Assembly: GCA_028693395.1 (NCBI GenBank)
Contig: JAQUVJ010000002.1
Span: 1 to 63,753 of the forward strand
Origin: Candidatus Nanoarchaeia archaeon
GTDB lineage: Archaea; Nanobdellota; Nanobdellia; Woesearchaeales; JAQUVJ01
DNA length: 63,753 nucleotides
Reading direction: 5' to 3'
Shown here: positions 8,270 to 25,872 of the stretch, piece by piece
Position numbering within the stretch: position 1 is the first letter of the stretch
Layout of the letters: each line of letters begins with the position of its first letter
Translations under genes and position numbers: made by a program
Notes under the pieces: model-generated
Told to the model about the DNA's origin: nothing
The model's input: the letters and a program-made list of their open reading frames with translations, nothing else
Databases searched by the model: none

Positions 8270-9391
8270 TTAATGATTAATAAGTGATTGACAAAATTTA
8301 TACATATAAGATAATCTATTATGATAATTACCTTTTACTATTTCCATTTTCGGATGAGCAGTAAAATCTCTAATATTGAAATTTTGATAATGTTCCAATA
8401 ATACTCCATCTAATTCATCCCGATAATCTTCATGTCTTCTTAGTCCATCACTCACCCATGGAACGCCCTCAAAAGAAAGGAAAAATCTATAATCATACAA
8501 ATCTTTATAATACGCATCATATATTGAATTAAAAAGATTCAATTCGGAGTCGGATATTTCATAAATATCATTTTCATTTTTATACAATCTATAATAGTAA
8601 TAAGTAACTACAATATCGGTATCAAAAAAACACAATCTATTGCAAGTTTTCAATGCATGGTCATTCGCTTCTATTTGCAATCTGATTATATTAAAATAAT
8701 CTTCATCGGTAATATATCTTTCATCATTTACATTTTGTTCTACATATATCCGACCCATTTCTTCGGCCCAAGATGTATGGAATATTTTAGCCAACATTTT
8801 TACCAGAGTAGTTTTTCCTGTTGATTCTGTACCAGTAATAAGAATCTTTTTTGCAAAGTGTTTTCTAGCTGACCCGCAAATATAGTCCCAATATTGCAAA
8901 GGATTTTTTCTTATTTGTGTAGCTGAAATAGGATATCTTGTCATAGAATAATCAAAATATTTAATATCGTACTCTGGAAAATAAGATTTATAAAATTCAA
9001 CATCATTCAATTCTCCAGTAAAAATAGTAAATTTAATATCCGTTGTATAAGGAGTACAATAATCATAAATAAAACTATTCAAGCATTTACTCCATTGAGG
9101 CCACCCAATGGGATATTCTGGCATATCATTAGGTTCCTTCATAATATGAATTTTTATATTATTAAAACCTTTTAATTCAGTTTTCAGCCAACGCAATCTT
9201 GTATCAGCGGAAATATATTTGATATTTGCTTCTTTACATAATCTCATATCTAACTGAATATTGTCGCAAATGATAATATTCAATTGATCACACTGAGAGT
9301 ATGCATTAAAAATATGAGTAAGATGTCCTCGATGTAAAGGAAAAAATTTTCCGACTAATATACCAACATGAAAATCATTATTGTTCATCAT
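8270..9391 (-). CDS. nadR: NadR-like bifunctional NMN adenylyltransferase / ribosylnicotinamide kinase (no HTH domain)
   Basis: GKFFPLHRGHL (HxGH), ISATQIRKNP (ISxxxxR), P-loop ITGTESTGKTTL with NadR-like context. Confidence 0.8.
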   Translation of the reverse strand: MMNNNDFHVGILVGKFFPLHRGHLTHIFNAYSQCDQLNIIICDNIQLDMRLCKEANIKYISADTRLRWLKTELKGFNNIKIHIMKEPNDMPEYPIGWPQWSKCLNSFIYDYCTPYTTDIKFTIFTGELNDVEFYKSYFPEYDIKYFDYSMTRYPISATQIRKNPLQYWDYICGSARKHFAKKILITGTESTGKTTLVKMLAKIFHTSWAEEMGRIYVEQNVNDERYITDEDYFNIIRLQIEANDHALKTCNRLCFFDTDIVVTYYYYRLYKNENDIYEISDSELNLFNSIYDAYYKDLYDYRFFLSFEGVPWVSDGLRRHEDYRDELDGVLLEHYQNFNIRDFTAHPKMEIVKGNYHNRLSYMYKFCQSLINH

Positions 9392-10250
9392 ATATTCTCC
9401 CTTTTTTTAAAATAGTCCATTCTCTTTTTTCTTTTGAATCTTCCGTCCATTTATAATAGCCATAAAAACTATTAATAAGAAAGCCAAGCCACATAAATAC
9501 AATCGGAAGTACCCAAGTAACAGAATTTCTATCATTTAATACAACCAGAATCCACATGAAAATAGTTATAATATTTGTAAGAATCCAAAATATCCATTGT
9601 TGTGAGTATGCCAACGTCATTAGAATCTGACCAATAATCTGTAATACTTCAGTAGATGAATCCAGAATTGGACCAAGTAATGTTATTCCAGTTATTGCTG
9701 TTATACTGGAATATATTGATTCATTTCTTTGCATAATATGAACAAACCAATGATCTACCATAGAAAGAAATATTCCGAATCCAATCAATGCTAGAATAGA
9801 AGTAATTGTAATAATAAATATACCTTGTTTTGTCAATTTTCTAGGCTTGATATATATTCTAGAAAATTTATCCATATGATATTTTTTCCATACAACCCAA
9901 CCAATAAATTGAAATGGCAGAAAAAAGAACCAATTTAAAATCCAATCACCATAATATCCGCTATACCAAGATATTGCTCCATACATAATAGCATTAATTA
10001 TACCCCAGTAGTAATTAGTAATATTTTCTTTTGCTACTAATACTACACATACTATTCCTGTTATAGCAGCTACGGGTGATATAATCCAATTCAATATAAC
10101 ATCAAAAAATGTATCATAAGGAGTTATATATGAAAAATAAAAAGTGGATCCCATAATAAGAGTAGTAATGAAGCCAACCAATATTTTTTCAAATACATTC
10201 CAAGAACTAAAATCCAAAGATTTTTGAATATATTGTATCATTATTTTCAT
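9378..10250 (-). CDS. pnuC: PnuC-like nicotinamide riboside transporter
   Basis: 290 aa, multiple TM helices rich in W/Y (SWYSGYYGDWILNWFFF); overlaps nadR-like gene by 14 nt. Confidence 0.7.
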   Translation of the reverse strand: MKIMIQYIQKSLDFSSWNVFEKILVGFITTLIMGSTFYFSYITPYDTFFDVILNWIISPVAAITGIVCVVLVAKENITNYYWGIINAIMYGAISWYSGYYGDWILNWFFFLPFQFIGWVVWKKYHMDKFSRIYIKPRKLTKQGIFIITITSILALIGFGIFLSMVDHWFVHIMQRNESIYSSITAITGITLLGPILDSSTEVLQIIGQILMTLAYSQQWIFWILTNIITIFMWILVVLNDRNSVTWVLPIVFMWLGFLINSFYGYYKWTEDSKEKREWTILKKGRIYDEQ

Positions 10251-10280: not shown

Positions 10281-10309
10281 ATTATACACTATGTCATTAA
10301 ATAAGTCAA
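10281..10309 (-). promoter_or_regulatory. sigma70-type promoter for pnuC-nadR
   Basis: Minus strand TTGACT-17 nt-TATAAT. Confidence 0.65.
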
Positions 10310-10364
10310 TGGACAATATTAAACTAGCAATTCAAACAATATAAGAATTTTTAGAATATGATTA

Positions 10365-10436
10365 AAAACTATTCACCACCCGGGCCGACAGTACGAGAAT
10401 TATCTGATTATTAAAAAACTATTCACCACCCGGGCC
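10365..10436 (+). repeat. tandem 50-bp duplication carrying two CCACCCGGGCC boxes
   Basis: AAAAACTATTCACCACCCGGGCC at 10365-10386 and 10415-10436. Confidence 0.85.
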
Positions 10437-10786
10437 AGCTTGGATTTTTATACAGAATATTCAGATAATAAATTACAATCTATTTATGAAAATGATGGCG
10501 ACGGAAAGACCAAGGTATGGATTGAAACATCGTTGGAGATAGCTCTAGAATGGCTTGTATCACATTATCCGTATCGATAAGGTAGTTCGATATGCTTCAC
10601 TGGTCAAGAACGATTCTGGGTCATTTTAGAGGTATGCGACTGAAAATTCCATAAAATCATTTCTATCATCCTTATAAAGCTCATGTCGTCGGATATAGCT
10701 CTAAAATCAACGCAGAGCTATATCCAGATGAAAGGTAATCTGATACGTCCTAATACAAGAAAATCATTCTACAAGTGTTTTAGAAT
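10437..10786. other. G+C-enriched ORF-free element bracketed by inverted CCACCCGGGCC boxes
   Basis: Boxes 10426-10436 and 10787-10797 (inverted); internal GGATATAGCTCT/AGAGCTATATCC 12-bp inverted repeat (10691-10725) plus third copy GGAGATAGCTCT (10545-10556). Confidence 0.5.
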
Positions 10787-10802
10787 GGCCCGGGTGGATA
10801 TA

Positions 10803-10842
10803 TGAAAATAAGAAGAGAGCGGCTTTTAGGGCCGCTCTCTTC
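10803..10842 (-). terminator. intrinsic terminator of cassette 1
   Basis: 12-bp stem GAAGAGAGCGGC/GCCGCTCTCTTC then T-rich run on minus strand. Confidence 0.8.
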
Positions 10843-10853
10843 ATTCATATTAG

Positions 10854-11459
10854 TTAGTTTATTGAGAAAAGAATGTCAAATCCGAATCCTTTCAACATGT
10901 CCAGAATCTTAGTGTTGGCGGGAGCATACCAAGCCTTGTTTTCAGGACTATACTTTCTTATCGGAAGAGTTTTGACATTCTGAAGAGTCTCCCTGTCAAA
11001 AGAAAACTCTATTTTCAGATAATTCATGTCATCTTTAGCTGACCGAACAAGAGATACCTTTTTGAATACTTCTTTGACAACAGTCTTTCCATCCTCAACA
11101 ACCTTTTTGGAAAAATCAATTTCAGCAAAATTCTTTATAATGCTCTTGGGTATCCACTGATCGACTTTGACGGCTTCGACCTCATCCCTGATCGTCTTGA
11201 CTTGATCTTCGGTAAGAGTTTCAAGAATGACATCCCTTGTTACCCATGAACCCAAGCATTCCGGCCCAATTCCCAGAAGTTTTGATCCTGGGTGAGTGAG
11301 TTTCCGGCCGCATCTAGCACAACGACCATCTTTGGGAATGATACCATTTCCTTTGACATAAACGGCCTTGTCAGATTCTTTCGTTATAACGCCGTTGATG
11401 TTATAAGGTACGTTCATTGCCCGTGCGATCCTCGTGCTGATAACAAAAATTTGATTCAT
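10854..11459 (-). CDS. DUF6011-motif protein with HARP-like C-terminal region
   Basis: True start ATG 11459 after AAGGGGGA SD (track start 11549 translates the leader); CARCGRKLTHPGSKLLGIGPEC; C-terminal KIEFSFDRETLQNVKTLPIRKYSPENKAWYAP. Confidence 0.6.
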   Translation of the reverse strand: MNQIFVISTRIARAMNVPYNINGVITKESDKAVYVKGNGIIPKDGRCARCGRKLTHPGSKLLGIGPECLGSWVTRDVILETLTEDQVKTIRDEVEAVKVDQWIPKSIIKNFAEIDFSKKVVEDGKTVVKEVFKKVSLVRSAKDDMNYLKIEFSFDRETLQNVKTLPIRKYSPENKAWYAPANTKILDMLKGFGFDILFSIN

Positions 11460-11520
11460 ATTAAAATCCCCCTTGGTAGATTGATGTTTGGTCGGGATTG
11501 CTCTTCCAACCAACAAGGAT

Positions 11521-11549
11521 ATTCTATCACGTATCAATCGATCCGTCAA
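11521..11549 (-). promoter_or_regulatory. cassette promoter P1
   Basis: TTGACG-17 nt-TGA-TAGAAT; member of 15-copy family. Confidence 0.75.
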
Positions 11550-11635
11550 TAGGGAAATATGATGTTTATATTTTCAGATAACTATCAACCACCCGGGCCA
11601 ACTCGGATTTTTATATAGAATATTCAGATAATAAA

Positions 11636-11785
11636 TTACTTTTTCCCAAGTACATCTTTATTGAATTTAATAGCTTTTTTAGCAAGATCATAAGCGGCGG
11701 AGGTATTTTCACCAATTTCCATAAAAAAACTATGCATTCCCACTATGAACATAAACCATAGAACATATGTAATATATTCTCGCAT
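11636..11785 (-). CDS. small membrane protein, 49 aa
   Basis: GAAAGGTGAT RBS; MREYITYVLWFMFIVGMHSFF...; below track cutoff. Confidence 0.45.
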   Translation of the reverse strand: MREYITYVLWFMFIVGMHSFFMEIGENTSAAYDLAKKAIKFNKDVLGKK

Positions 11786-11852
11786 TAGATATCACCTTTC
11801 TAATTTTCATAATATAAAGAGGGGAGTTTTCAAGACTCACCTCTATCGGATT

Positions 11853-12167
11853 TTAGACTATGAAAGTAATTCTCAGAAATTTCAGTTTGGCTCCATCAGG
11901 AAGAGTAGTGCTACCCTCGGCCAGTCTTGGACCGGAATATTGAACCACGAAAAGAGTGTCGTCCATGTCCAGTGTTACCGACTCCCTGTTGAACGTGAAT
12001 CCTTCCCAGGAAGAGGCCAGAGAATCGGCCAGTTCCTTATGACCGATAACACTCTTCGGGCTATTTTTTATAATCTCTTCAAGAGTAACAGTTTCAACAC
12101 TCATGCCGTAGTTGTTTTCCGAAATCATATTGAGAGAAAAAGCGTTGGAAACGAGAGTCTTTGCCAT
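11853..12167 (-). CDS. DUF1874 / AcrIII-1-like viral ring nuclease (candidate anti-type III CRISPR)
   Basis: True start ATG 12167 after AAGGAGGA SD; MAKTLVSNAFSLNM..., VIGHKE (catalytic His context), VVQYSGPRLAEG match STIV B116 / SIRV1 gp29 family. Confidence 0.8.
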   Translation of the reverse strand: MAKTLVSNAFSLNMISENNYGMSVETVTLEEIIKNSPKSVIGHKELADSLASSWEGFTFNRESVTLDMDDTLFVVQYSGPRLAEGSTTLPDGAKLKFLRITFIV

Positions 12168-12237
12168 TGTGAAATCCTCCTTAGAAATTGTATTTTGTCG
12201 GTCGGGTCGCCTGTTCGCTCTTCCAACCAACAAGGAT

Positions 12238-12266
12238 ATTCTATCACGTATCAATCAATCCGTCAA
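12238..12266 (-). promoter_or_regulatory. cassette promoter P2
   Basis: TTGACG-17 nt-TGA-TAGAAT. Confidence 0.75.
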
Positions 12267-12482
12267 GCATTAAAATCGATTTTTTTGATGATTAAATTTT
12301 CAAACAACTCAACATCCTTTCAATTATATAGTCTGCATATCGGTGAAAAAATATTTTATAGATAATTCTGAATAATCTAACCATCGCCGCCCCGGGCCAA
12401 CTCGGATTTTTTTGCAGAATATTCGTATAGATTGAAAGCAATAAAAAAGACAACTCCTTTTAAGAGTTGTCTTTATATTCTA

Positions 12483-12647
12483 TTATATTTCAGTCAATTT
12501 CAGAATATGATCTTCCGGGTTCTCGTTCGGTGCAGTATATTTCAACCATTCAAAAAAGTCTATATCATCGCCGTCGATAATTCCGGTAATAACTTCGTCC
12601 ATATAAAGATCCAGAAAGGGGCCAAACTTTATTATAATCGTTGTCAT
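12483..12647 (-). CDS. acidic mini-protein, 54 aa
   Basis: AAGGGGGA SD; MTTIIIKFGPFLDLYMDEVITGIIDGDDIDFFEWLKYTAPNENPEDHILKLTEI; terminator AAGACAACTC/GAGTTGTCTT follows. Confidence 0.6.
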   Translation of the reverse strand: MTTIIIKFGPFLDLYMDEVITGIIDGDDIDFFEWLKYTAPNENPEDHILKLTEI

Positions 12648-12708
12648 TTAAAAATCCCCCTTAGATATTAGATGTTTGGTCGGGATCGCTCTTCCAACCA
12701 ACAAGGAT

Positions 12709-12737
12709 ATTCTATCACGTATCAATCAATCCGTCAA
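12709..12737 (-). promoter_or_regulatory. cassette promoter P3
   Basis: TTGACG-17 nt-TGA-TAGAAT. Confidence 0.75.
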
Positions 12738-12830
12738 GCATTAAAATCGATTTTTTCTATGATTAAATAGTTAGATAATAGCTAAAATCGTTATTGAAGT
12801 AACCTCGGAAAAAACCTATTTTAGAACACA

Positions 12831-13020
12831 ACCACGTAAAGTCTTGCAAACACTGGATTCTTAGATTTCTTGTGAATAAGATAACATATTTATAAAGCCT
12901 TGCAAACACTAGCTTTTTTATACACGATCACTAATCTCCTATGTGTCGCAACGAAAAATGGATAAATGGTATAAAGCTACACTTGCAATCTAAAACCGCG
13001 ACAGGATTGAAATTAGGAAT
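12831..13020 (+). ncRNA. hairpin element copy a (candidate structured RNA)
   Basis: Two CGTAAAGYCTTGCAAACACTRG motifs then GATCACTAATCTCC...GCGACAGG...AATTAGG hairpin; paralog of 15542-15780 and 17815-18055. Confidence 0.4.
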
Positions 13021-13192
13021 TGTATATATTATTATAAACAATGCGGCCAGGGTGGATAAAATTGTATATGCTTTTAAAACAATTATGATTATATGAAAAT
13101 GATTATAATTGATATATATTCTAAAAAAACGATTATCAACCACCCGGGCCAGCTTGGATTTTTTCACAGAATATTCATACAAATTGAAGATA

Positions 13193-13240
13193 ATAAAAAA
13201 AAGACTGTTTATTTTTCTCGAAATAAACAGTCTGAAAAAA
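13193..13240. terminator. bidirectional intrinsic terminator
   Basis: AGACTGTTTAT/ATAAACAGTCT 11-bp stem between A8 and A-run. Confidence 0.75.
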
Positions 13241-13243
13241 CTA

Positions 13244-13417
13244 TTAAATTGCATATGTCATTTTTTCGGAAATAAGATAACTTGTATTAATACCTGGATA
13301 ATAAAATTCCATCCATTCCAAAAAACTAAAAATAGTCTCATTATCTTCTACTTCTTGAAGCCAATCATGATAATAATAACTATCTTCAAGAATCTGATAT
13401 GAAGAAGAGCTAGGCAT
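13244..13417 (-). CDS. acidic aromatic-rich mini-protein, 57 aa
   Basis: GGGGGG SD overlapping end of upstream ORF; MPSSSSYQILEDSYYYHDWLQEVEDNETIFSFLEWMEFYYPG... Confidence 0.55.
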   Translation of the reverse strand: MPSSSSYQILEDSYYYHDWLQEVEDNETIFSFLEWMEFYYPGINTSYLISEKMTYAI

Positions 13418-13418
13418 A

Positions 13419-13727
13419 TTAAAAACCCCCCTTATAAAGATTAGTCAGATTATTTTCTACAATTCTCTTGAAACGTCTGGCGAGATTACGATTCGCCATA
13501 TAACGACGTTTCACGGGATTGACAGACTTCTCCAATTTTTCTCTCTTTTTGCCCGTCCAATCCTCAGGGCGAACAAACTCACGACGGACCTGATGATTAG
13601 TGAGTTTCTTGTAATAAGAATTGTCAGAAATATCGTCAGTATTCCGAACAATTTTTTTTGTATCAGCTTTCACTTCGATGCCCATTCCGTCCGTAAAAAT
13701 ATAGCTCTTTCGATAAGTATTTGCCAT
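13419..13727 (-). CDS. basic hypothetical protein, 102 aa
   Basis: AAGGAGGG SD, first gene of P4 cassette. Confidence 0.7.
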   Translation of the reverse strand: MANTYRKSYIFTDGMGIEVKADTKKIVRNTDDISDNSYYKKLTNHQVRREFVRPEDWTGKKREKLEKSVNPVKRRYMANRNLARRFKRIVENNLTNLYKGGF

Positions 13728-13799
13728 ATTAAAAACCCTCCTTGAAAGATAGATGTTTGGTCGGGAACGCTTGACTTCGCTCTTCCAACCAACAAGGAT

Positions 13800-13828
13800 A
13801 TTCTACCATGCTTTATCGAATCCGTCAA
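13800..13828 (-). promoter_or_regulatory. cassette promoter P4
   Basis: TTGACG-17 nt-TGG-TAGAAT. Confidence 0.75.
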
Positions 13829-13910
13829 TAGGGAAATATGATGATTAAATTTTCAGATAATTTATATTCTGGATATTATATTCTGTATTCTGTATTCTGT
13901 ATACACAAAC

Positions 13911-14123
13911 GCGGAATAAATAAATTTTTCTTTTTAGGAGTATTGTGCGGAAAATATAAATTTTTATTAGATGGAATATTGTGCGGAAAATAAATTTTTA
14001 TTAGATGGATATTATGCAAAATAAATGAATTTTTATTAGATGGATAATTTATGCGAAATAAATGAATTTTTATTAGATGGGTATTTATGCGAAAAATATA
14101 AATTTTCGTGTTAGAGGTATGAT
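13911..14123 (+). repeat. six tandem 33-37-bp iteron-like repeats
   Basis: GCGRAAAATAAATGAATTTTTATTAGATGGATAWTTAT units head to tail, no spacers. Confidence 0.85.
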
Positions 14124-14139
14124 TAAAAAGATTCTAATC

Positions 14140-14194
14140 TTTTGCGTAACGTAGTGAAGCAAAAGAGTTTTTGCGTAACGCAGTGAAGCAAAAA
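14140..14194 (+). repeat. two tandem hairpin repeats
   Basis: TTTTGCGTAACGYAGTGAAGCAAAA twice (TTTTGC/GCAAAA stems). Confidence 0.8.
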
Positions 14195-14217
14195 CCTGAT
14201 CGGCTAAAATATTTTTG

Positions 14218-14354
14218 GTCGGCGCAATATATTTTCCTCCAAACTCTTTTTTAACGACTTATATTTTTTCAAACTATTTATAATTATTCAAACTATTTAT
14301 AATTTTTAAAGGCTAAGTACTTTTAACTTTATCATCTTTTTCTATTTTTACTAA
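14218..14354 (+). repeat. long direct repeat, copy 1
   Basis: GTCGGCGCAATATATTTTCCTCCAAACTCTTTTTTAACGACTTATATTTTTT... about 90 percent identical to 14580-14696. Confidence 0.85.
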
Positions 14355-14431
14355 TTCGTCAATTCGTAATATAGTTCTTAGGAATCATCTTTTTCGGTTA
14401 AAAGATGAGTCTTAGGAATCATCTTTTAGAC

Positions 14432-14461
14432 TTGACAAACTATACTATAGTATGATATAAT
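14432..14461 (+). promoter_or_regulatory. near-consensus sigma70 promoter with no downstream ORF
   Basis: TTGACA (14432-14437)-18 nt-TGA-TATAAT (14456-14461), points into ORF-free repeat DNA. Confidence 0.6.
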
Positions 14462-14579
14462 AATTAAAAAAAAACTTTTATTTTAGGAATATTTTTAGAA
14501 ATGCATTCAGAAGGTATGATATGAAATTTTTATAATCGTTCTCAAAATATAAAAATTGCGTCGACCAAAAATTTATCCA

Positions 14580-14696
14580 GTCGGCGCAATATATTTTCCT
14601 CCAAACTCTTTTTTAACGACTTATATTTTTTAAACTATTTATAAAATTTTAAAGGCAAGTACTTTTAACTTTATCATCTTTTTCTATTTTCACTAA
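14580..14696 (+). repeat. long direct repeat, copy 2
   Basis: Paralog of 14218-14354; followed by AATTCCTAAGA/TCTTAGGAATT 11-bp hairpin. Confidence 0.85.
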
Positions 14697-14773
14697 ATTA
14701 TACATAATTCCTAAGATTCATTTTTATATGAGTCTTAGGAATTATTTTATGAACAAAAATATTTCAGAAAATT

Positions 14774-14932
14774 TTAGCTATTATCAATCATATCTTGAGT
14801 ATAAAATGTCTTGCTAGTTTCATAATCACATTCCATACAAAATACTTTGACTGTTATGGAATTTTCTTCAGGATTAGCACAATAATCAAAATCTGTTTCT
14901 TTTCCGCATACAGGACAAAAAACACTATTCAC
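14774..14932 (-). CDS. zinc-ribbon mini-protein, 52 aa
   Basis: GAAAGGAG RBS, GTG start; CPVC...CMEC. Confidence 0.5.
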   Translation of the reverse strand: MNSVFCPVCGKETDFDYCANPEENSITVKVFCMECDYETSKTFYTQDMIDNS

Positions 14933-14956
14933 TACACAACACTCCTTTCAAAATAT

Positions 14957-14988
14957 AAAGAGGGAATTTTTTAGATAATTCCCTCTTT
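14957..14988 (-). terminator. intrinsic terminator
   Basis: AAAGAGGGAATT/AATTCCCTCTTT 12-bp stem. Confidence 0.7.
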
Positions 14989-14999
14989 CATATAAATTT

Positions 15000-15368
15000 C
15001 TATTCCTTGTTCAGTTCAATAGAATTGTAAGTATTATTTATGTCATTCAGATATCGAAGAATATTTGTTGCTTCTTTTGTATTCTTCTTTGTATTAGCAT
15101 CCAAAATAACTATTGGTATCATAATATCATTCTGAGCAACAATTCCCATGTCCCAGAGAGTATAAAGAGTAGTCAATTCCGAACCGTAATTCATTGACCA
15201 CAAAACCCCTTCTATTTCCGAAAAATGAAATACGACTGGTGAGTTCTTGTTGTCCAAAACAAATCTTTCAAACTTCTTGTTAATTTTGCAATCCAAATCC
15301 GTTTTAATGTCACCCTTTTTAATCATACTAGCTAAAGTACCGATGTTTAGAACCTTCGTCTTCATCAT
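15000..15368 (-). CDS. hypothetical protein, 122 aa
   Basis: AAGGGGGA SD 9 nt before ATG; P5 cassette. Confidence 0.7.
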   Translation of the reverse strand: MMKTKVLNIGTLASMIKKGDIKTDLDCKINKKFERFVLDNKNSPVVFHFSEIEGVLWSMNYGSELTTLYTLWDMGIVAQNDIMIPIVILDANTKKNTKEATNILRYLNDINNTYNSIELNKE

Positions 15369-15435
15369 CTGTGAAAATCCCCCTTATAAAGATATTTTGT
15401 CAGTCGGATCGTTTACTCTTCCCTCCGACTGCTAT

Positions 15436-15464
15436 ATATTATCACGGTTTTTTCAATCCGTCAA
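15436..15464 (-). promoter_or_regulatory. cassette promoter P5 (variant)
   Basis: TTGACG-17 nt-TGA-TAATAT; leader hairpin CAGTCGGA/TCCGACTG. Confidence 0.7.
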
Positions 15465-15541
15465 GTAGTATTTTTCATGATTAAATATTCTGATAAATAA
15501 AAACGTCGTATTGACCAAGGAAAATCGTTAATTTTTCAATG

Positions 15542-15780
15542 ACCACGTAAAGCCTTGCAAATACTGGGTTTTTATATTTCTTGTGAATGAAATATCAAAC
15601 TCGTAAACTGTTGCTACGACTACATTTTTTCTATACGATCACTAATCTCTTCTGTATCGGTCTGTTTTTCCATAAAACAGTATAACTGCACACGTCTAAA
15701 ATTTTCATTGCGACACAGAGGAGATTAGTAATGTTTAGACCGCTCTAACATTTATAAACTGTTGATATTACTGGATTTTT
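15542..15780 (+). ncRNA. hairpin element copy b (candidate structured RNA)
   Basis: 15-bp stem ACTAATCTCTTCTGT (15641-15655) / ACAGAGGAGATTAGT (15715-15729) with one U-G pair valid only on plus-strand RNA; flanked by three TTGCAA-type 22-mers. Confidence 0.45.
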
Positions 15781-15875
15781 CAAGTCGATAAATTCTAAAA
15801 AACATCATGCTAAAAAATCTCATTGACCCCCTGGCCTTCCCGAAGAATGCAGAATATTCCGTCATGTAGAATATA

Positions 15876-15912
15876 ATAAAAAAGACGGCTCTTTTATGGG
15901 AGTCGTCTTTAT
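15876..15912 (-). terminator. intrinsic terminator
   Basis: AAGACGGCTC/GAGTCGTCTT stem with flanking A/T runs. Confidence 0.65.
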
Positions 15913-15920
15913 ATTTTTAA

Positions 15921-16325
15921 TTAAAGAGTAATTTCAGCCATTTCGGGAATTTCAACCCTTACCTTCCTCGGTCTGCCTCTAGGTCTCTTTTCAGCCACCG
16001 GAGCATTCGGATCCACAGGCTTCCTCGGTCTACCTCTAGGTCTCTTCTCAGCCACAGGTGCATTCGGATCAATCATCTTCTTTGGTCTCCCCCTTCCTCT
16101 CTTTTCTACTACAAGAAACCCGCTATCAACCAATGTATTGACAAAATCAATTACATTCGGCATATTCAGAGTTGTAGCAATATTCTCAACAACTACCCCC
16201 TCGTCCTTTGGAACACTGAAAAATACCGCCTTGAAATTCTCGTCCTTATTAAAACGAGCATTTTGAATAAGATTGAAAGTATTCGCCTTATTTCCTCTCT
16301 TCACTACTGCCTTTACGTTCATCAT
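15921..16325 (-). CDS. AT-hook repeat DNA-binding protein
   Basis: Start ATG 16325 after AAGGAGG; three RGRP AT-hook cores (KRGRGRPKK, KRPRGRPRK twice) in tandem PVAEKRPRGRPRKxVDPNA repeats. Confidence 0.7.
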   Translation of the reverse strand: MMNVKAVVKRGNKANTFNLIQNARFNKDENFKAVFFSVPKDEGVVVENIATTLNMPNVIDFVNTLVDSGFLVVEKRGRGRPKKMIDPNAPVAEKRPRGRPRKPVDPNAPVAEKRPRGRPRKVRVEIPEMAEITL

Positions 16326-16400
16326 CACCATTACCTCCTTGAATTTTAATTTCTTTTCAATTTCTTTATGATTATATCTTATCATAAAGAAATTCGTTTG

Positions 16401-16718
16401 TCAAGCTCTTTTTTCAAACTTTTTAATCAATCCATCCAAAAAGCTATTTTCTCTAACTATTTTGGAGATTGCTGTTTCAATATGAGAATCCAACAATCCC
16501 TCCGCATAAATATCGTTGTAAAATTCTCTTTCCGATGTTACCTGATAATATTTGTTTACGGCCCAGAAAATATCCCAAGTGATTCTTTTTCTGAAATTCT
16601 GAAAATCCTTGGAATTAAAAACTTTTTCAATATGAGCCGCTGTTTCTGATGGATGTTTTCCTACAAAATCATTGATCTCATTTTTAATCTTCTCATAAAG
16701 TGTCTTGCTCATTTTCAT
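16401..16718 (-). CDS. hypothetical protein, 105 aa
   Basis: GAGGGGGA SD; first gene of P6 cassette. Confidence 0.7.
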   Translation of the reverse strand: MKMSKTLYEKIKNEINDFVGKHPSETAAHIEKVFNSKDFQNFRKRITWDIFWAVNKYYQVTSEREFYNDIYAEGLLDSHIETAISKIVRENSFLDGLIKKFEKRA

Positions 16719-16770
16719 TCAGAAATCCCCCTCTATTTTGTTTTCAAGTGTCTTCCGAACCAACAAGGAT

Positions 16771-16799
16771 ATTCTACCATGCTTCAATCAATCCGTCAA
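16771..16799 (-). promoter_or_regulatory. cassette promoter P6
   Basis: TTGACG-17 nt-TGG-TAGAAT. Confidence 0.75.
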
Positions 16800-16904
16800 T
16801 AGGTTATTTTCGATTTTCTTGTAGATTAAATTTTCAAACAACTTCCCACCACCCGGGCCAGACGTACAAAAATTTTTTCAATATTCAAATTATCAGAATA
16901 TAAG

Positions 16905-16941
16905 AAAAAAGCGACTCCCTTAAAAGAGTCGCTTTTTTTTC
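16905..16941. terminator. intrinsic terminator
   Basis: AGCGACTC/GAGTCGCT stem between A6 and T8. Confidence 0.75.
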
Positions 16942-16944
16942 TAT

Positions 16945-17298
16945 TTAAAATTCTCTTCTCAAATAATAAGTGCAACCAAAACCTTCACCCAATGTTTCAT
17001 CATCATTATAAGGATACAGAATACCTCTTACTTCCGTTATTCTTGCCGTAACTGTCCCCCAACAGGTTACATTCTGAGTTTTTTTACTATTCAATTTTCG
17101 AGAAGTGATTTTATACTGAAAAGCTGGATAGATGATATTTTTTGCGTTGTATCTAATTTCAAATTTAGTTCCAACAAAAGCTTGATCAACAAATACATTC
17201 GATTCTGTATTCCACTCATCACCCTTTACAGAATCGATCATCCAAACTTCCCCGGCGAACTCAACGATGGGTTTTTTGCTCATATCGATTTTTTTCAT
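16945..17298 (-). CDS. hypothetical protein, 117 aa
   Basis: True start ATG 17298 after AAGGGGGA SD; track start 17373 translates the conserved leader. Confidence 0.7.
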   Translation of the reverse strand: MKKIDMSKKPIVEFAGEVWMIDSVKGDEWNTESNVFVDQAFVGTKFEIRYNAKNIIYPAFQYKITSRKLNSKKTQNVTCWGTVTARITEVRGILYPYNDDETLGEGFGCTYYLRREF

Positions 17299-17363
17299 TA
17301 TAAAATCCCCCTTGAAAATAGATGTTTTGGTCGGGATCGCTCTCTCTCTCAACCAACAAGGAT

Positions 17364-17392
17364 ATTCTACCATAAAAAAATCAATACGTCAA
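17364..17392 (-). promoter_or_regulatory. cassette promoter P7
   Basis: TTGACG-17 nt-TGG-TAGAAT. Confidence 0.75.
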
Positions 17393-17449
17393 TAAGAAAA
17401 TATGATGTTTATATTTTCAAATAACTCCCCACCATAATAAACAGTACAA

Positions 17450-17737
17450 AAATTATCAAACTATTCAAAATAAAAATAATATATTAAAAAAACAAGTTAA
17501 TTGAAAAAACCCAAAATTTTTGAATACGTTAATTATACCTAAAATAGAAAAAACTATGAAAGTTAATTTAAAAAAACCTTTTTTTTTTGGTAAATTGTCA
17601 GATAATTTAGATTAGTCGGAAGATATTATTAAAAACAAAATTTTATCAATTATTTCATTATTTCATTAATTCATCATAAAAATATAAATTCTATAAAGAT
17701 TCAGATTATAGGATATATATTTTTTTGTCTTTAAATT
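17450..17737 (+). repeat. long dispersed direct repeat, copy 1
   Basis: Blocks AAACTATTCAAAATAAAAATAATATATTAAAAAAACAAGTTAATTGAAAAAACCC and TTCTATAAAGATTCAGATTATAGGATATATATTTTTTTGTCTTTAAATTC recur at 18810-19003. Confidence 0.8.
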
Positions 17738-17814
17738 CGGATAACTATCTCGTTCATTATACCATTTCAGATTTCAAAATTTCCCCTAGAAAAACCTATT
17801 TCATAATCTAATCT

Positions 17815-18055
17815 CGTAAAGCCTTGCAAACACTAGCTTTCTCAACTTCTCATTTTAAAAAATCCAACCTTGTAAAACCTTGCTATCACTAGCTTTTTTG
17901 ACCACGATCACTAATCTCTTCTGTACGGGGTTTTTAATACACATATCCATACAATCTTGCGTCTTCATTTCTAAAAACGCGACACAGAGCAAAATAGTAA
18001 TCGTAAGCCTTGTCTAACATTTATAAAACCTTGCAATTACTAGGTTTTTTATTTT
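17815..18055 (+). ncRNA. hairpin element copy c (candidate structured RNA)
   Basis: Same layout as copies a and b; arms 17910-17924 / 17984-17998 (12 of 15 pairs) plus inner CGGGGTTTTTA/TAAAAACGCG pairing. Confidence 0.4.
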
Positions 18056-18375
18056 TGATATTCCAGAAAAAAGATATATAAAAACTTTTACACCCGGGCC
18101 AAACGTACAAAAATTTTTTTAATATTCAGACTATCAAAATATAATAAAAAATGACCCTTTAAATTTTTCTTCTGAAAGAGCAGGGTCAGACTCTTCCAGC
18201 AACACTCATTTTTATAAATACTATGAATACCAAAATGAGAAAATATTCATAGCTTGAAACGATTCTTAAAAATTAAAATATTTAGATAATTGGAAATGCA
18301 GAATCAACATCTCCAATTACCTGTCTTTTTATAATACCTCATAAACAATAAAAGACAAAATGTTTACGGGATAAA

Positions 18376-18422
18376 TTAAAAAATTTTAATACGAGTAGAA
18401 AGGAGGATAACTACTCGTATTA
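18376..18422 (-). terminator. terminator downstream of tRNA-Leu
   Basis: 12-bp stem TAATACGAGTAG/CTACTCGTATTA then T-run on minus strand; second 13-bp hairpin at 18428-18461. Confidence 0.7.
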
Positions 18423-18547
18423 AAAGTGAAATGATTATTATTTCGAGCTAATAATCATTTCAATGGAACAAGAAATACCGTTGCGTTGTGCTTGTATCGC
18501 CGCATGGGGTCGGCAAAATTAAACTTTCTGATATTAAATTTTTTAAA

Positions 18548-18634
18548 TGGTGCGAGAGGGGGGACTCGAACCCCCAATCCCCTCCGGGCGAAGCATTTTA
18601 AGTGCTTTGCGTATCCCAATTCCGCCACTCTCGC
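18548..18634 (-). tRNA. tRNA-Leu (anticodon UAA), class II, CCA encoded
   Basis: Acceptor GCGAGAG/CTCTCGC, U8, D-arm GCGGAATTGGGATACGC, anticodon stem AAGCA/TGCTT with loop CTTAAAA, long variable arm, T-arm GGGGG-TTCGAGT-CCCCC, A-CCA end. Confidence 0.9.
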
Positions 18635-18681
18635 ACTTTTCTCTTTATTCACTTGTCAAGGTCGTTTCGCTCAACATGTAT

Positions 18682-18710
18682 ATAATACCATAGGATCAAT
18701 AAGATGTCAA
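18682..18710 (-). promoter_or_regulatory. promoter for tRNA-Leu
   Basis: TTGACA-17 nt-TGG-TATTAT, about 40 nt upstream of the tRNA 5' end. Confidence 0.65.
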
Positions 18711-18809
18711 TAACTAAAATCAATGTTTAAATTATCAAAAAACTTACTTACCCTTCAAACCATCCCGAAGAATGCAGAATATTCCGTCAACCACCCAGGC
18801 CATCGCCCA

Positions 18810-19003
18810 GAAATTATTAAACTATTCAAAATAAAAATAATATATTAAAAAACAAGTTAATTGAAAAAACCCTAAATTTCTTGAAAAATTGAATTGAATG
18901 GAAAATGACATAAAAATATAAATTGAAACAAAAAATATAAAATTTCATATTTATTCTATAAAGATTCAGATTATAGGATATATATTTTTTTGTCTTTAAA
19001 TTC
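18810..19003 (+). repeat. long dispersed direct repeat, copy 2
   Basis: Paralog of 17450-17737; bracketed by boxes at 18791-18801 and 19011-19021. Confidence 0.8.
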
Positions 19004-19055
19004 CCCTCATCCACCCGGGCCAACTAAATATAAATTTCAGATAATTTTCTATATA

Positions 19056-19094
19056 ATAAAAATGCGCTATCCCTCAAAGATAGCGCATTTTTTA
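19056..19094. terminator. intrinsic terminator
   Basis: ATGCGCTATC/GATAGCGCAT stem between A5 and T6. Confidence 0.75.
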
Positions 19095-19099
19095 GATTA

Positions 19100-19945
19100 T
19101 TAAACTATTTCATAATCCCATTTTTCCCAGTTATTTATATTGTACAATTTCCCTTTCCAATTAAACTTTATTTTATTATCCATATCAACTACAACAAATG
19201 TATCAGCTTTCTCTCCTGCAATCGTTACATAACCATTCAATATTCTAATTCTTTCACCATGATTCAATTTTCTCTTTTTTGTATTTTGTTTCATGGAAGT
19301 ACTGGAATATCCAGTCGTTTCAACCTTTTTTCTCCAATTATATGAACGCTCTTTTTCCTCATATGAATAATTATCAGCCAAATCCAAATTATCCAACTTA
19401 TTAAACATTTCCATCGGCATTCGTATTAAATGTTCAAATGTCAACGTATCCATATAATCAGAATACTCAGGAATCAAAGTAATATCAGCATTATGAATAG
19501 TTTTTTTAATTTTCATTTTCATCGCTGCTGCAACACGATTTCCCATAACATCCAAATACAAGATATAACCTTCACGACCACCCTTATGAATAAATATATC
19601 AATTATAATATTTTTTCCAAACAAATCCATTATAGCCTCTTTCAATGTCTTTCCCCTATAACTAACATTAAAACGAGAATTCAACCTATCATAAAACGTT
19701 TCAATAATTACTTCCCTTTTCTCTTCTCTCTTGGTACTAGTAGCTTTTTCATATCCCCTATAGCTACCAGGCATATATCCAGATACCAAATACTTTTTCA
19801 TTATACCATACTCTTCATTGAGCATCTTCATCATCTCGTCATTCCCACCACGATCAGGATGATGTATTCTTACTAATCTCCTATACTCATTCTTCAATAC
19901 AGAATCATCTTTGATCACAGAAGTATTAAAAAACTGCATCATCAT
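19100..19945 (-). CDS. J-domain (DnaJ-like) protein, 281 aa
   Basis: N-terminal YRRLVRIHHPDRGGNDEMMKMLNEEY with HPD tripeptide; rest unrecognised. Confidence 0.75.
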   Translation of the reverse strand: MMMQFFNTSVIKDDSVLKNEYRRLVRIHHPDRGGNDEMMKMLNEEYGIMKKYLVSGYMPGSYRGYEKATSTKREEKREVIIETFYDRLNSRFNVSYRGKTLKEAIMDLFGKNIIIDIFIHKGGREGYILYLDVMGNRVAAAMKMKIKKTIHNADITLIPEYSDYMDTLTFEHLIRMPMEMFNKLDNLDLADNYSYEEKERSYNWRKKVETTGYSSTSMKQNTKKRKLNHGERIRILNGYVTIAGEKADTFVVVDMDNKIKFNWKGKLYNINNWEKWDYEIV

Positions 19946-20178: not shown

Positions 20179-20207
20179 CTCATCTCCTCTCATCAACCAA
20201 CAAGGAT

Positions 20208-20236
20208 ATTCTATCATATTAAAATCAATCCGTCAA
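20208..20236 (-). promoter_or_regulatory. cassette promoter P8
   Basis: TTGACG-17 nt-TGA-TAGAAT; leader truncated (no hairpin). Confidence 0.75.
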
Positions 20237-20272
20237 TAAGAAAATATGATGTTTATATTTTCAGATAACTTA

Positions 20273-20479: not shown

Positions 20480-20497
20480 AAAAATTTATAAATTCTT

Positions 20498-25368: not shown

Positions 25369-25872
25369 TTAAAATATTCTTATAACGTGACCATTTTCAG
25401 TTTCAATATATCCATCATGACCTAAATCTTTGCCTATTGCTTCATAATCAATATAACATTTTAGATTATCTGATACTTCACCAAACAATCCTTCATCGAC
25501 TAATTCTTCAGCAACTTCTTCCAAATCTGAATTAGCATAGAATTCATAATCACCATCATCATAAATTGCAAGTGCTGTATTCCAATCTTTTTCAACTTCA
25601 TATATTGCTTCAAGTCTATCTATCTCATCATTATCATCAATATTAGCAACACTTTCAAAAAAATTATTCAACTTTTCCAAATCTGTATCTTCTGTAATTT
25701 CATAATCATCAAGTTCAATTTCAGAATCTACGATAACAGCAGTAGTAACATCTTCGCATCCAAGAGTTTCAAGAGCTTCTTCCAATTCTGAATCTAAAAA
25801 AGGAAGATCCAACCAAATAATATTATCCTCAGTACGCTTATACATATTTGTCAAGGCTATTCTATTATTCAT
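25369..25872 (-). CDS. ardA: ArdA-like antirestriction protein (DNA mimic)
   Basis: True start ATG 25872 after GAGGAGG; highly acidic; C-terminal CYIDYEAIGKDLGHDGYIETENGHVIRIF matches ArdA YfDYEafaRDL...G..f motif. Confidence 0.7.
   Translation of the reverse strand: MNNRIALTNMYKRTEDNIIWLDLPFLDSELEEALETLGCEDVTTAVIVDSEIELDDYEITEDTDLEKLNNFFESVANIDDNDEIDRLEAIYEVEKDWNTALAIYDDGDYEFYANSDLEEVAEELVDEGLFGEVSDNLKCYIDYEAIGKDLGHDGYIETENGHVIRIF

What the first reader, a model, noticed from the sequence alone, without database searches (positions are those of the whole stretch)
11853..12167. AcrIII-1-like (DUF1874) viral ring nuclease in cassette 2
The corrected ORF is MAKTLVSNAFSLNMISENNYGMSVETVTLEEIIKNSPKSVIGHKELADSL...VVQYSGPRLAEG...LRITFIV. 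It reproduces the landmarks of STIV B116 / SIRV1 gp29: NAFS(I/L)NM at the N-terminus, the IGH catalytic-His context and the RLxEG segment. This family is established as a cyclic tetra-adenylate ring nuclease that disables type III CRISPR signalling. Its presence supports reading the array as anti-defence and predicts a host with a cA4-dependent type III system.
Basis: partly seen in the sequence, partly recalled or inferred. Interest (0 to 1): 0.7.

Follow-up and report, generated by a model that had tools for sequence, protein, structure and literature searches.

The report
Phage ring nuclease gene (AcrIII-1 family)
This is a real 104-residue gene of a novel low-GC phage that belongs to the known AcrIII-1/DUF1874 family of enzymes, which destroy the cyclic tetra-adenylate alarm signal of type III CRISPR; it is a correct but fairly ordinary annotation, and its main interest is a shared early promoter that also drives an anti-restriction gene.

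Summary
Window 11853..12167 (minus strand) encodes exactly the quoted 104-aa protein, with an AAGGAGG ribosome-binding site. It is under strong purifying selection (dN/dS about 0.08 against a 77%-identical orthologue).

Family membership is solid. The single-sequence Pfam hit to PF08960 falls below the curated cut-off (19.8 vs 26 bits). A profile of its homologues, however, matches the solved DUF1874 proteins (E 1e-10) and canonical members by hhalign (99.8%, E 8e-28). The AlphaFold model hits only DUF1874 structures; the best hit is the THSA-485A protein that blocks cA4-dependent type III immunity.

The catalytic His and all near-invariant cA4-contact residues are kept. Two semi-conserved contacts differ (S49/T50 become E45/L46).

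The gene has its own sigma-A-type extended -10 promoter and a 5' hairpin leader. This module recurs at least 13 times and also drives ArdA. The cassette is compositionally foreign, and its region is absent at this site in related phages.

Enzyme activity, early timing and the host's type III system remain inferred. Verdict: new member of a known kind, with modest interest.

The parts
12238..12266 (-). Sigma-A/sigma-70-type promoter of the gene: TTGACG, a 17-nt spacer ending in TGA (extended -10), then TAGAAT
   Evidence: Consensus scan and pattern scan. It belongs to a family of at least 13 near-identical minus-strand promoters between 11.5 and 26.3 kb.
12197..12231 (-). 5'-proximal leader hairpin (9-bp stem GUUGGUUGG/CCGACCGAC) at the predicted start of the transcript
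   Evidence: RNA folding gives -16.9 kcal/mol and z = -2.6. An equivalent hairpin is predicted in all 12 leaders folded, with different but complementary stem sequences. This includes the two cassettes of L001.
12176..12182 (-). Shine-Dalgarno sequence AAGGAGG, 8 nt before the ATG
   Evidence: Read directly from the sequence.
11853..12167 (-). CDS of the 104-aa DUF1874 / AcrIII-1-family ring nuclease homologue (stop codon included)
11808..11844 (-). Terminator-like hairpin (9 pairs with one mismatch) followed by UUUAUAUUAU. It is weak, so read-through into the next small ORF is possible.
   Evidence: RNA folding. The simple terminator scan did not call it. The sequence is similar to the terminator called at 14957..14988 (repeat D20).
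11636..11785 (-). Downstream 49-aa ORF with a hydrophobic N-terminus. It has no promoter of the family of its own and may be co-transcribed. Function unknown.
   Evidence: no Pfam or PHROG hit.
11570..11639 (.). Inter-cassette repeat (CACCACCCGGGCCAACTCGGATTTTT...AGAATATTC) that separates this cassette from the next one
   Evidence: Repeat families D4 and D6. The short hairpin plus T-run reads as a terminator only on the + strand.

Best explanation
The gene encodes a viral ring nuclease of the AcrIII-1 (DUF1874) family.

By homology, it should form a homodimer that binds cyclic tetra-adenylate (cA4) at the dimer interface. N8, S11, N13, R61 and Q76 would contact the ligand. R81 and E84 sit on a loop that closes over it. 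H43 would act as general acid, cutting the ring on both sides into linear A2>P.

The gene has its own consensus-like, host-RNA-polymerase-type promoter, a 5'-terminal hairpin leader and a strong ribosome-binding site. It is therefore probably made in quantity as soon as the phage DNA enters the cell. That would drain cA4 before cA4-activated effectors, typically the ancillary nucleases or proteases of type III CRISPR, can act.

What is shown:
- the ORF exists and is under purifying selection;
- it belongs to the family by sequence and by predicted fold;
- the catalytic and ligand-binding residues are conserved;
- the promoter, leader and SD anatomy is as described;
- it lies in a phage;
- the cassette is compositionally foreign and sits in a variable region.

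What is inferred:
- dimerisation;
- cA4 cleavage;
- early timing of expression;
- that the host signals with cA4.

My estimates: family membership about 0.97, cA4 ring-nuclease activity about 0.8, and a real anti-type III role in natural infection about 0.6.
For: Sequence:
- PHROG 5063, E 6.5e-8.
- phmmer against PDB hits only SIRV1 gp29 (2x4i, 1e-4) and its cA4 complex (6scf, 5e-4).
- THSA-485A DUF1874, 39% identity, E 2e-11.
- A profile of 19 homologues hits AFV3-109, gp29 and B116 at 1e-10 to 5e-8.
- hhalign against the canonical members gives 99.8%, E 8e-28.

Structure:
- AF2 model, pLDDT 81.8.
- The 17 best Foldseek PDB hits are all DUF1874 proteins (TM about 0.65-0.69 for the significant ones); the 17th is already non-significant (E 1.6) and unrelated folds follow (E > 2).
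- The best viral hit is the THSA-485A protein: TM 0.78/0.80, rmsd 2.6 A.

Function of the nearest characterised relative:
- The THSA-485A gene abolished cA4-dependent but not cA6-dependent type III immunity. H47 of gp29 is the catalytic acid.

Residues:
- In a 68-sequence family alignment, N8, H47 and R66 are invariant.
- S11, N13, Q81, R85 and E88 are present in 60-66 of 68.
- The query keeps all eight.

Expression:
- Promoter TTGACG-17(TG)-TAGAAT, 5' hairpin, AAGGAGG.
- The same module drives ArdA.

Accessory nature:
- Gene GC is 43.8% and GC3 46.7%, against GC3 of 10-20% in core genes.
- Related phages lose homology exactly upstream of PnuC and lack the array there.
- An orthologue sits in a similar promoter-hairpin-terminator cassette on L001.

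Constraint:
- dN/dS about 0.08.
Against: - The single-sequence Pfam score (19.8 bits) is below the curated cut-off of 26.
- Two semi-conserved cA4 contacts of gp29 differ. S49 becomes E45. T50, which is T in 58 of 68 family members, becomes L46. The query clade also has a one-residue insertion in the helix after the catalytic His. This could change affinity or specificity.
- The C-terminal lid is a beta-strand in the model rather than the helix of the archaeal proteins. THSA-485A is the best structural match (TM 0.78-0.80) and is active, so it probably shares this arrangement; its secondary structure was not inspected.
- No biochemical data exist for this clade.
- The host is unknown, so a cA4-producing system in it is unverified.
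- A family member (SIRV2 gp37) is not an Acr in native infection and has another role.
- 'Early' timing is inferred from promoter sequence only.
Confidence: 0.75

Rival explanations
1. It is a true DUF1874 protein, but inhibiting type III CRISPR is not its main job in this phage. It might degrade or sequester a different cyclic oligonucleotide, such as another cOA species or a signal of a non-CRISPR defence system. Or it might act by binding a host protein, as SIRV2 gp37 does with a lysine methyltransferase.
For: - SIRV2 gp37 has no Acr activity in native infection, and it inhibits a host methyltransferase.
- Many archaeal viral ring nuclease genes lie outside anti-defence islands.
- The query clade replaces T50 with Leu and S49 with Glu and has a one-residue insertion next to the active-site His.
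- DUF1874 also occurs in cellular and integrated-element contexts, for example YddF of B. subtilis.
Against: - All invariant and near-invariant catalytic and cA4-binding residues are kept.
- The nearest characterised relative is cA4-specific in vivo.
- The methyltransferase partner is restricted to Crenarchaeota.
- Unlike gp37, this gene has a strong host-type promoter shared with ArdA.
Confidence: 0.17
2. It acts as a Crn2-type 'off switch' and not as an anti-CRISPR. In this reading it tunes cA4 levels for a type III system carried by the phage or by its host.
For: The same family is used by cells as Crn2 and is fused to Csx1 in Marinitoga.
Against: - The window shows no cas gene or CRISPR array. 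The large ORFs tested gave no PADLOC hit apart from one weak ShosT match. Rfam found only a tRNA.
- The surroundings are phage genes: DNA ligase, polymerase, UvsX, RNA ligases.
- Crn2 is rare in CRISPR loci (7 loci), whereas the viral form is the commonest phage ring nuclease.
Confidence: 0.04
3. It is a chance ORF or a decaying pseudogene. The real feature would then be the antisense 206-aa ORF (11745..12365, + strand) or non-coding repeat DNA.
For: - A longer ORF exists on the opposite strand.
- The region is full of repeats.
Against: - dN/dS is about 0.08 against the L001 orthologue.
- There are 34 homologues in the word-indexed search and 2,813 clusters in the full search.
- The model is confident and has the expected fold.
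- The + strand ORF runs through the promoter and leader repeat. The peptide it gives there (SSNQQGYSITYQSIRQ) recurs in every cassette's antisense ORFs, which marks repeated non-coding DNA.
Confidence: 0.02

Closest known systems
AcrIII-1 of Thermoanaerobacterium phage THSA-485A (Tsac_2833, DUF1874)
   Same: - A bacterial (Firmicute) phage protein of about 102 aa.
- 39% identity over 93% of the query.
- Best structural match: TM 0.78-0.80, rmsd 2.6 A.
- Same C-terminal segment, (R)L(P/A)EGSTTLP...KF..(I/V)T.
- Shown to abolish cA4-dependent but not cA6-dependent type III immunity.
   Different: - THSA-485A has GHADTA after the catalytic His. The query has GHKELAD, with E and L in place of D and T plus one extra residue.
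- The THSA gene sits within a run of same-strand genes in a 42-kb phage genome. It is not in a stand-alone promoter-bearing cassette.
SIRV1 gp29 (PDB 2x4i; 6scf with cA4) and STIV B116 (2j85), the founding AcrIII-1 structures
   Same: - Same fold (Foldseek E about 2e-5, TM 0.65-0.69).
- N8, S11, N13, H47, R66, Q81, R85 and E88 are all conserved in the query.
   Different: - Only about 25% identity.
- They come from archaeal viruses.
- Their lid loop is followed by an alpha-helix, whereas the query model ends in a beta-strand.
- S49 and T50 are replaced.
- The close SIRV2 homologue gp37 is a middle/late gene and does not act as an Acr in native infection.
Crn2 and Csx1-Crn2 (cellular DUF1874 ring nucleases, e.g. 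Marinitoga, PDB 8y7g)
   Same: Same domain and presumably the same chemistry. The structural match has probability 1.00 and TM about 0.65.
   Different: Those proteins are encoded in or fused to type III CRISPR loci and act as self-limiting switches. This gene is a stand-alone gene in a lytic-type phage genome, with no cas genes nearby.
P_ADE, the shared anti-defence promoter of crenarchaeal viruses
   Same: One strong early promoter is reused in front of many anti-defence genes. Here, one promoter-leader module is reused at least 13 times and fronts both the ring nuclease and ArdA.
   Different: - The organisms and promoter types differ. Here it is a bacterial sigma-A-like extended -10 promoter plus a 5' hairpin.
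- Only 2 of 24 crenarchaeal viral ring nuclease genes are under P_ADE.
- The regulon character of the module in this phage is inferred and has not been measured.

Membership tests
AcrIII-1 / Crn2 (DUF1874, Pfam PF08960 STIV_B116-like) | Single-sequence match to PF08960 above Pfam's gathering score | tested here: inconclusive
   The hit is the only Pfam family found and covers 8-86 of the protein and 5-87/101 of the model. It scores 19.8 bits, E 9e-4, against a cut-off of 26. The database's precomputed Pfam column lists PF08960 for this protein and for almost all of its homologues.
AcrIII-1 / Crn2 (DUF1874, Pfam PF08960 STIV_B116-like) | Profile-level homology to experimentally studied members | tested here: met
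   - Profile of 19 homologues against PDB: AFV3-109 1.1e-10, SIRV1 gp29 1.7e-10, gp29 H47A 1.2e-8, STIV B116 5.3e-8, and nothing else.
- hhalign against gp29, B116, AFV3-109 and THSA-485A: probability 99.8%, E 8.2e-28, 101 columns.
AcrIII-1 / Crn2 (DUF1874, Pfam PF08960 STIV_B116-like) | The DUF1874 fold | tested here: met
   - AF2 model with pLDDT 81.8 and pTM 0.76.
- Foldseek PDB ranks 1-17 are all DUF1874 chains: 2j85, 6scf, 2x4i, 2j6b and Csx1-Crn2 (8y7f, 8y7g, 8y6z). Ranks 1-16 have E 1.7e-5 to 2.4e-2; rank 17 (8y6z) has E 1.6. The first unrelated fold has E 2.4.
- BFVD top hit is THSA-485A, TM 0.78/0.80.
AcrIII-1 / Crn2 (DUF1874, Pfam PF08960 STIV_B116-like) | Absolutely conserved catalytic histidine (H47 of SIRV1 gp29) | tested here: met
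   H43 of the query aligns with H47. The column is His in 68 of 68 sequences.
AcrIII-1 / Crn2 (DUF1874, Pfam PF08960 STIV_B116-like) | Conserved cA4-contact side chains (N8, S11, N13, R66, Q81, R85) and E88 | tested here: met
   The query has N8, S11, N13, R61, Q76, R81 and E84. Column frequencies are 68, 66, 60, 68, 62, 66 and 66 of 68.
AcrIII-1 / Crn2 (DUF1874, Pfam PF08960 STIV_B116-like) | Semi-conserved contacts S49 and T50 (not invariant in the family, so not strictly defining) | tested here: inconclusive
   The query has E45 and L46. The T50 column is T in 58 of 68 and L, I or V in 8. The S49 column is D in 48, S in 11 and E in 2. The effect on binding is unknown.
AcrIII-1 / Crn2 (DUF1874, Pfam PF08960 STIV_B116-like) | Homodimer with the ligand site at the interface | not testable with these tools
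   Only monomer prediction is offered. Dimerisation is inferred from homology.
AcrIII-1 / Crn2 (DUF1874, Pfam PF08960 STIV_B116-like) | Rapid, specific cleavage of cA4 to A2>P | not testable with these tools
   This needs a biochemical assay.
AcrIII-1 (the viral, anti-CRISPR use of the family) | Encoded by a virus or mobile element and not in a type III CRISPR locus | tested here: met
   - The window carries phage DNA ligase, polymerase, UvsX-like recombinase, RNA ligases and Nampt.
- No CRISPR or cas signal among the ORFs tested or in Rfam.
- There is only one DUF1874 ORF in the window.
AcrIII-1 (the viral, anti-CRISPR use of the family) | Expression early enough to pre-empt cA4 signalling | tested here: inconclusive
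   The gene has its own TTGACG-17(TG)-TAGAAT promoter, a 5' hairpin leader and a strong SD, and shares this module with ArdA. This is consistent with immediate-early transcription by host RNA polymerase. Timing was not measured.
AcrIII-1 (the viral, anti-CRISPR use of the family) | Inhibits cA4-dependent type III CRISPR immunity in vivo, and the host has such a system | not testable with these tools
   The host is unidentified. A Firmicute or Clostridia-like host is suggested by about 26% GC, an SLH-domain protein and an orthologue binned in a Clostridia MAG.

The most novel reading that the evidence does not exclude
The promoter plus 5'-hairpin leader module in front of this gene could mark a phage 'anti-defence regulon', a bacterial counterpart of the crenarchaeal P_ADE.

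The module occurs at least 13 times between 11.5 and 26.3 kb. It also fronts ArdA and two HicA-like genes. It lies in a compositionally foreign region that is absent at this site in related phages.

If this reading is right, the roughly ten small genes of unknown function under the same module are candidates for new counter-defence proteins. The conserved flanks could also serve as recombination handles for swapping cassettes between phages.

A smaller, separate possibility concerns the GHKELAD variant of the active-site helix (T50 to L, S49 to E, one extra residue). It might shift ligand preference away from cA4.
Probability: 0.3. Interest if true: 0.6.

Novelty: new member of a known kind. 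Interest (0 to 1): 0.33.

Why it matters
The AcrIII-1 family is already well characterised, and adding one more member changes little.

Three things give this copy some value.
- It comes from a bacterial phage lineage with no close relative in the phage databases searched.
- Unlike the SIRV2 homologue, whose late expression prevents Acr function, this gene carries its own strong host-type promoter shared with a known anti-restriction gene. That makes it a good bacterial test case for whether viral ring nucleases really work as anti-CRISPRs in native infections.
- It anchors a promoter-defined set of small unknown genes that could be mined for new counter-defence functions.

It also gives a testable prediction about the unknown host: that it uses cA4-based signalling.

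Tried and rejected
- blastn (distant mode) of the cassette array 10300-18200 against 50,697 phage records found no match. A first attempt failed because the query was one base too long.
- An exact-sequence look-up of the window's own protein found no contig on record.
- A search of IMG/VR with a 14-nt leader motif gave only single chance matches, because the pattern was too short. A 20-nt promoter-leader pattern found nothing in IMG/VR.
- The same 20-nt pattern found six metagenome contigs. None was similar to the window by blastn, and none carried the promoter pattern (one search was a script error).
- Rfam has no family for the leader hairpin; it found only the tRNA.
- PADLOC models gave nothing for the gene or for the large neighbouring ORFs, apart from a weak ShosT-like hit on a probable phosphoribosyl-transfer enzyme.
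- The TTG start at 12254 was rejected because it lies within the promoter.
- The antisense 206-aa ORF at 11745..12365 was rejected because it reads through repeated promoter DNA.
- The closest IMG/VR homologue (L004, 50% identity, 204-kb contig) sits in an unrelated context and has an N-terminal extension, so it was not informative about the cassette.
- Host identification through PnuC homologues gave related phage contigs but no named organisms.

Full report
**1. The observation**

The mechanical ORF list extends it to a TTG at 12254. That codon lies inside a promoter (first hexamer at 12266, second ending at 12238). The ATG at 12167 has AAGGAGG eight bases upstream.

The ORF is a real gene.
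- A 77%-identical orthologue exists on a 1.5-kb contig binned in a Clostridia MAG (P0003/L001).
- Comparison of the two genes gives dN 0.146, dS about 1.8 (near saturation) and dN/dS about 0.08.
- The 206-aa ORF on the opposite strand reads through the repeated promoter DNA. It yields the same peptide (SSNQQGYSITYQSIRQ) that appears in the antisense ORFs of every cassette. It is an artefact.

**2. What the protein is**

Single-sequence searches are weak but specific.
- Pfam gives PF08960 (STIV_B116-like) as the only family, at E 9e-4 and 19.8 bits. This is under the gathering score of 26.
- PHROG 5063, of unknown function, scores E 6.5e-8.
- phmmer against all PDB chains returns only SIRV1 gp29 (2x4i) and its H47A-cA4 complex (6scf) below E 1e-3.
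- tblastn against phage genomes finds the DUF1874 gene of Thermoanaerobacterium phage THSA-485A (39% identity, E 2e-11) and a Methanobacteriales virus.

Profile and structure searches are much stronger.
- The protein database holds 34 homologues by the word-indexed search.
- A profile of 19 of them (A1) hits AFV3-109, gp29 and B116 at 1e-10 to 5e-8, and nothing else in the PDB.
- hhalign of that profile against gp29, B116, AFV3-109 and THSA-485A gives 99.8% probability and E 8e-28 over 101 columns.
- An exhaustive HMM search finds 2,813 clusters (50% identity) at E <= 1e-3. This is a large family.
- The AlphaFold model (pLDDT 81.8) matches only DUF1874 structures in the PDB with any significance: B116, gp29 with and without cA4, AFV3-109 and Csx1-Crn2, at TM 0.61-0.69. 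A last Csx1-Crn2 entry (E 1.6) and then unrelated folds (E > 2) follow.
- In the viral structure library the top hit is the THSA-485A protein: TM 0.78/0.80, rmsd 2.6 A.

**3. Active site**

The original AcrIII-1 paper names H47 as the absolutely conserved general acid. It lists N8, S11, N13, S49, T50, R66, Q81 and R85 as cA4-contacting side chains. It also shows that the THSA-485A gene abolishes cA4-dependent but not cA6-dependent type III immunity.

I aligned 68 sequences: the query, loci, THSA-485A and the three PDB proteins.
- N8, H47 and R66 are invariant.
- S11, N13, Q81, R85 and E88 are present in 60-66 of 68.
- The query keeps all of them, as N8, S11, N13, H43, R61, Q76, R81 and E84.

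Two semi-conserved contacts differ. T50 (T in 58 of 68) is L46, and S49/D is E45. The query and its two closest relatives also carry one extra residue in the helix after the His (GHKELAD versus GHADTA). The model ends in a beta-strand (94-103), whereas archaeal proteins have a lid helix there. THSA-485A, which is active, is the best structural match and shares the C-terminal sequence pattern, so it probably has the same arrangement; I did not inspect its secondary structure.

I conclude that membership is secure and ring-nuclease chemistry is likely. A change in affinity or specificity cannot be excluded.

**4. Surroundings and expression**

The window is a fragment of a very AT-rich (26% GC) large phage. 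It carries DNA ligase, a polymerase, a UvsX-like recombinase, two RNA ligases, Nampt, NadR, PnuC, a Dam-type methylase and an SLH-domain protein. Its relatives among sequenced phages are only distant: about 30% identity to the recombinases of Bacillus and Moorella phages, and no DNA match.

Between 11.5 and 26.3 kb the minus strand carries at least 13 copies of one promoter type: TTGACG, 17 nt ending in TGn, then TAGAAT or TATACT. Most of them (9 of the 13) run into the conserved leader ATCCTTGTTGGTTG; those at 15464 and 26335 have a variant leader (ATAGCAGTCGG...) and 23924 has a different, short one. Where the leader is long it continues with a complementary CCGACCAA-type arm and then a strong SD.

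All 12 leaders folded form a 5'-proximal hairpin of 5-9 bp. The stem sequences differ but stay complementary: GUUGGUUG with CGACCAAC, CGGCCAGC or CGACCGGC; GUCGG with CCGAC; and CAGUCG with CGACUG in L001.

The ring nuclease gene is the second of these units. Its promoter is at 12266..12238, its hairpin at 12231..12197 (-16.9 kcal/mol) and its SD at 12182..12176. A weak terminator-like hairpin follows at 11844..11818, then a 49-aa ORF of unknown function.

The same module fronts an ArdA anti-restriction gene (25369..25872, Pfam E 3.9e-12) and two HicA-toxin-like paralogues. The other cassette genes have no informative hits. From general knowledge of Firmicute phages and mRNAs, repeated strong host-type promoters with short genes recall the SPO1 host-takeover module, and 5'-terminal hairpins stabilise mRNAs. 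This is a resemblance from memory and was not tested.

The cassette looks like an accessory element.
- It is compositionally foreign: 43.8% GC and GC3 46.7%, against GC3 of 10-20% in replication genes. The neighbouring cassettes up to about 16.4 kb show the same bias.
- Related phages share PnuC-NadR at 81% DNA identity. They lose all similarity exactly upstream of the PnuC start (window 10244) and carry a metallophosphatase and a 117-aa gene there in place of the array.
- The orthologue on L001 sits in a similar promoter-hairpin-SD-gene-terminator cassette, next to a second such cassette.

**5. Mechanism and rivals**

The best explanation is an early-expressed dimeric ring nuclease that hydrolyses cA4 and so blunts cA4-activated effectors, chiefly those of type III CRISPR. 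The ORF, the homology, the fold, the conserved residues and the regulatory anatomy are shown. Dimerisation, catalysis, timing and the host's signalling system are inferred.

The main rival is that the protein has another primary role or ligand. The close SIRV1 gp29 homologue SIRV2 gp37 is a middle/late gene. It has no Acr activity in native infection and inhibits a host lysine methyltransferase. Only 2 of 24 crenarchaeal viral ring nuclease genes sit under the shared anti-defence promoter P_ADE.

The present gene differs on exactly that point, because it shares a strong promoter module with ArdA. I therefore rate a genuine anti-defence role as more likely here than for gp37, though it remains unproven.

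A Crn2-like regulatory role is unlikely, because no cas genes were found. A chance ORF is excluded.

**6. Comparison and novelty**

The closest known protein is THSA-485A AcrIII-1, followed by SIRV1 gp29 and STIV B116. Cellular Crn2 and Csx1-Crn2 share the domain but not the context.

AcrIII-1 was found in 36 of 28,114 cultured phage genomes and is the commonest phage ring nuclease. A further copy is therefore unremarkable: it is a new member of a known kind.

What is mildly interesting is the expression context and the set of unknown genes under the same module. Attempts to find close relatives or the host led nowhere.

**7. Verdict**

Interest is 0.33.

Noticed in passing
window 11521-26335, minus strand (first hexamers at 11549, 12266, 12737, 13828, 15464, 16799, 17392, 20236, 21862, 22688, 23924, 25956, 26335): A family of near-identical extended -10 promoters (TTGACG-17(TGn)-TAGAAT or TATACT). 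Most run into the conserved leader ATCCTTGTTGGTTG; where the leader is long it forms a 5'-terminal hairpin with compensatory stem variants, followed by a strong SD. The orthologue contig L001 has two cassettes built the same way. There is no Rfam family for it, and no match in IMG/VR with a 20-nt pattern.
   Followed up: partly
window 25369-25872 (-): An ArdA anti-restriction protein (Pfam PF07275, E 3.9e-12) under the same promoter-leader module as the ring nuclease gene.
   Followed up: partly
window 21557-21778 (-) and 26027-26248 (-): Two paralogous 73-aa HicA-toxin-like genes (PF07927, E 1.8e-7 for the first). Each has a promoter of the family, and no obvious HicB partner was seen next to either.
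   Followed up: no
window 10854-16385: The cassette genes here have GC 36-44% and GC3 37-47%, apart from 15000-15368 (GC 32.5%, GC3 37%). Core phage genes have GC3 of 10-20%. This block of compositionally foreign DNA probably arrived by horizontal transfer.
   Followed up: partly
window 10244 (PnuC start); loci L203-L208: Related phage contigs share PnuC-NadR at 81% DNA identity, and the similarity stops exactly upstream of PnuC. At that point they carry a metallophosphatase, a 117-aa gene and a homologue of window ORF 1264-1737. The cassette array is therefore a variable or rearranged region.
   Followed up: partly
window 10407-10476, 11570-11639, 12369-12438, 13121-13190 (also near 16850, 18091, 18984): An inter-cassette repeat, CACCACCCGGGCCARCTYGGATTTTT...CAGAATATTC. 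The small hairpin plus T-run would terminate only + strand (antisense) transcription. The palindromic core GAATATTC also occurs between the cassettes of L001. Its function is unknown; it could be an operator, an antisense terminator or a recombination site.
   Followed up: no
window 13860-14760: A non-coding stretch of about 900 bp. It contains 5.5 iteron-like 36-bp tandem repeats (13911-14106), a duplicated module of about 130 bp (14206-14354 and 14568-14696), and repeated TCTTAGGAAT boxes around a perfect 12/12 consensus + strand promoter (14432-14461). It may be a replication origin or a regulatory switch.
   Followed up: no
window 8270-10250 (-), 55435-57886 (+): An NAD salvage set: PnuC NMN transporter, a NadR-like protein (only the AAA_28 domain hit in Pfam), Nampt/NadV, and an adjacent protein with a weak ShosT (phosphoribosyltransferase-like) match in PADLOC. 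From my own knowledge, phage Nampt plus Nmnat pathways can counter NAD-depleting defences. This was not tested here.
   Followed up: no
window 42735-43748 (-), 58720-59817 (+): Two RNA ligase genes (PHROG 548, and PHROG 562 which is T4 gp63/Rnl1-like). Such genes are typical of phages that repair tRNAs cut by anticodon nucleases.
   Followed up: no
window 18548-18634 (-): A tRNA-Leu(UAA) gene inside the array, preceded by its own TTGACA-17-TATTAT promoter at 18710..18682.
   Followed up: no
window 15921-16385 (-), repeat at 15963-16076: A 154-aa protein with AT-hook motifs (PF02178). It is encoded partly by a 57-nt direct repeat that gives PRGRPRK...DPNAPVAEKR twice. It is probably a DNA-binding early protein.
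   Followed up: no
window 39372-40826 (-), 43980-44888 (-), 49232-50680 (+): An SLH-domain protein, which hints at a host with an S-layer, i.e. Firmicute-type. Also a Dam-class N6-adenine methyltransferase and a PAS-GAF sensor-like protein.
   Followed up: no
proteins P0035, P0037, P0038, P0039: Some family members of 214-259 aa contain two DUF1874 stretches. These are tandem-fused 'pseudo-dimers' of the ring nuclease domain.
   Followed up: no
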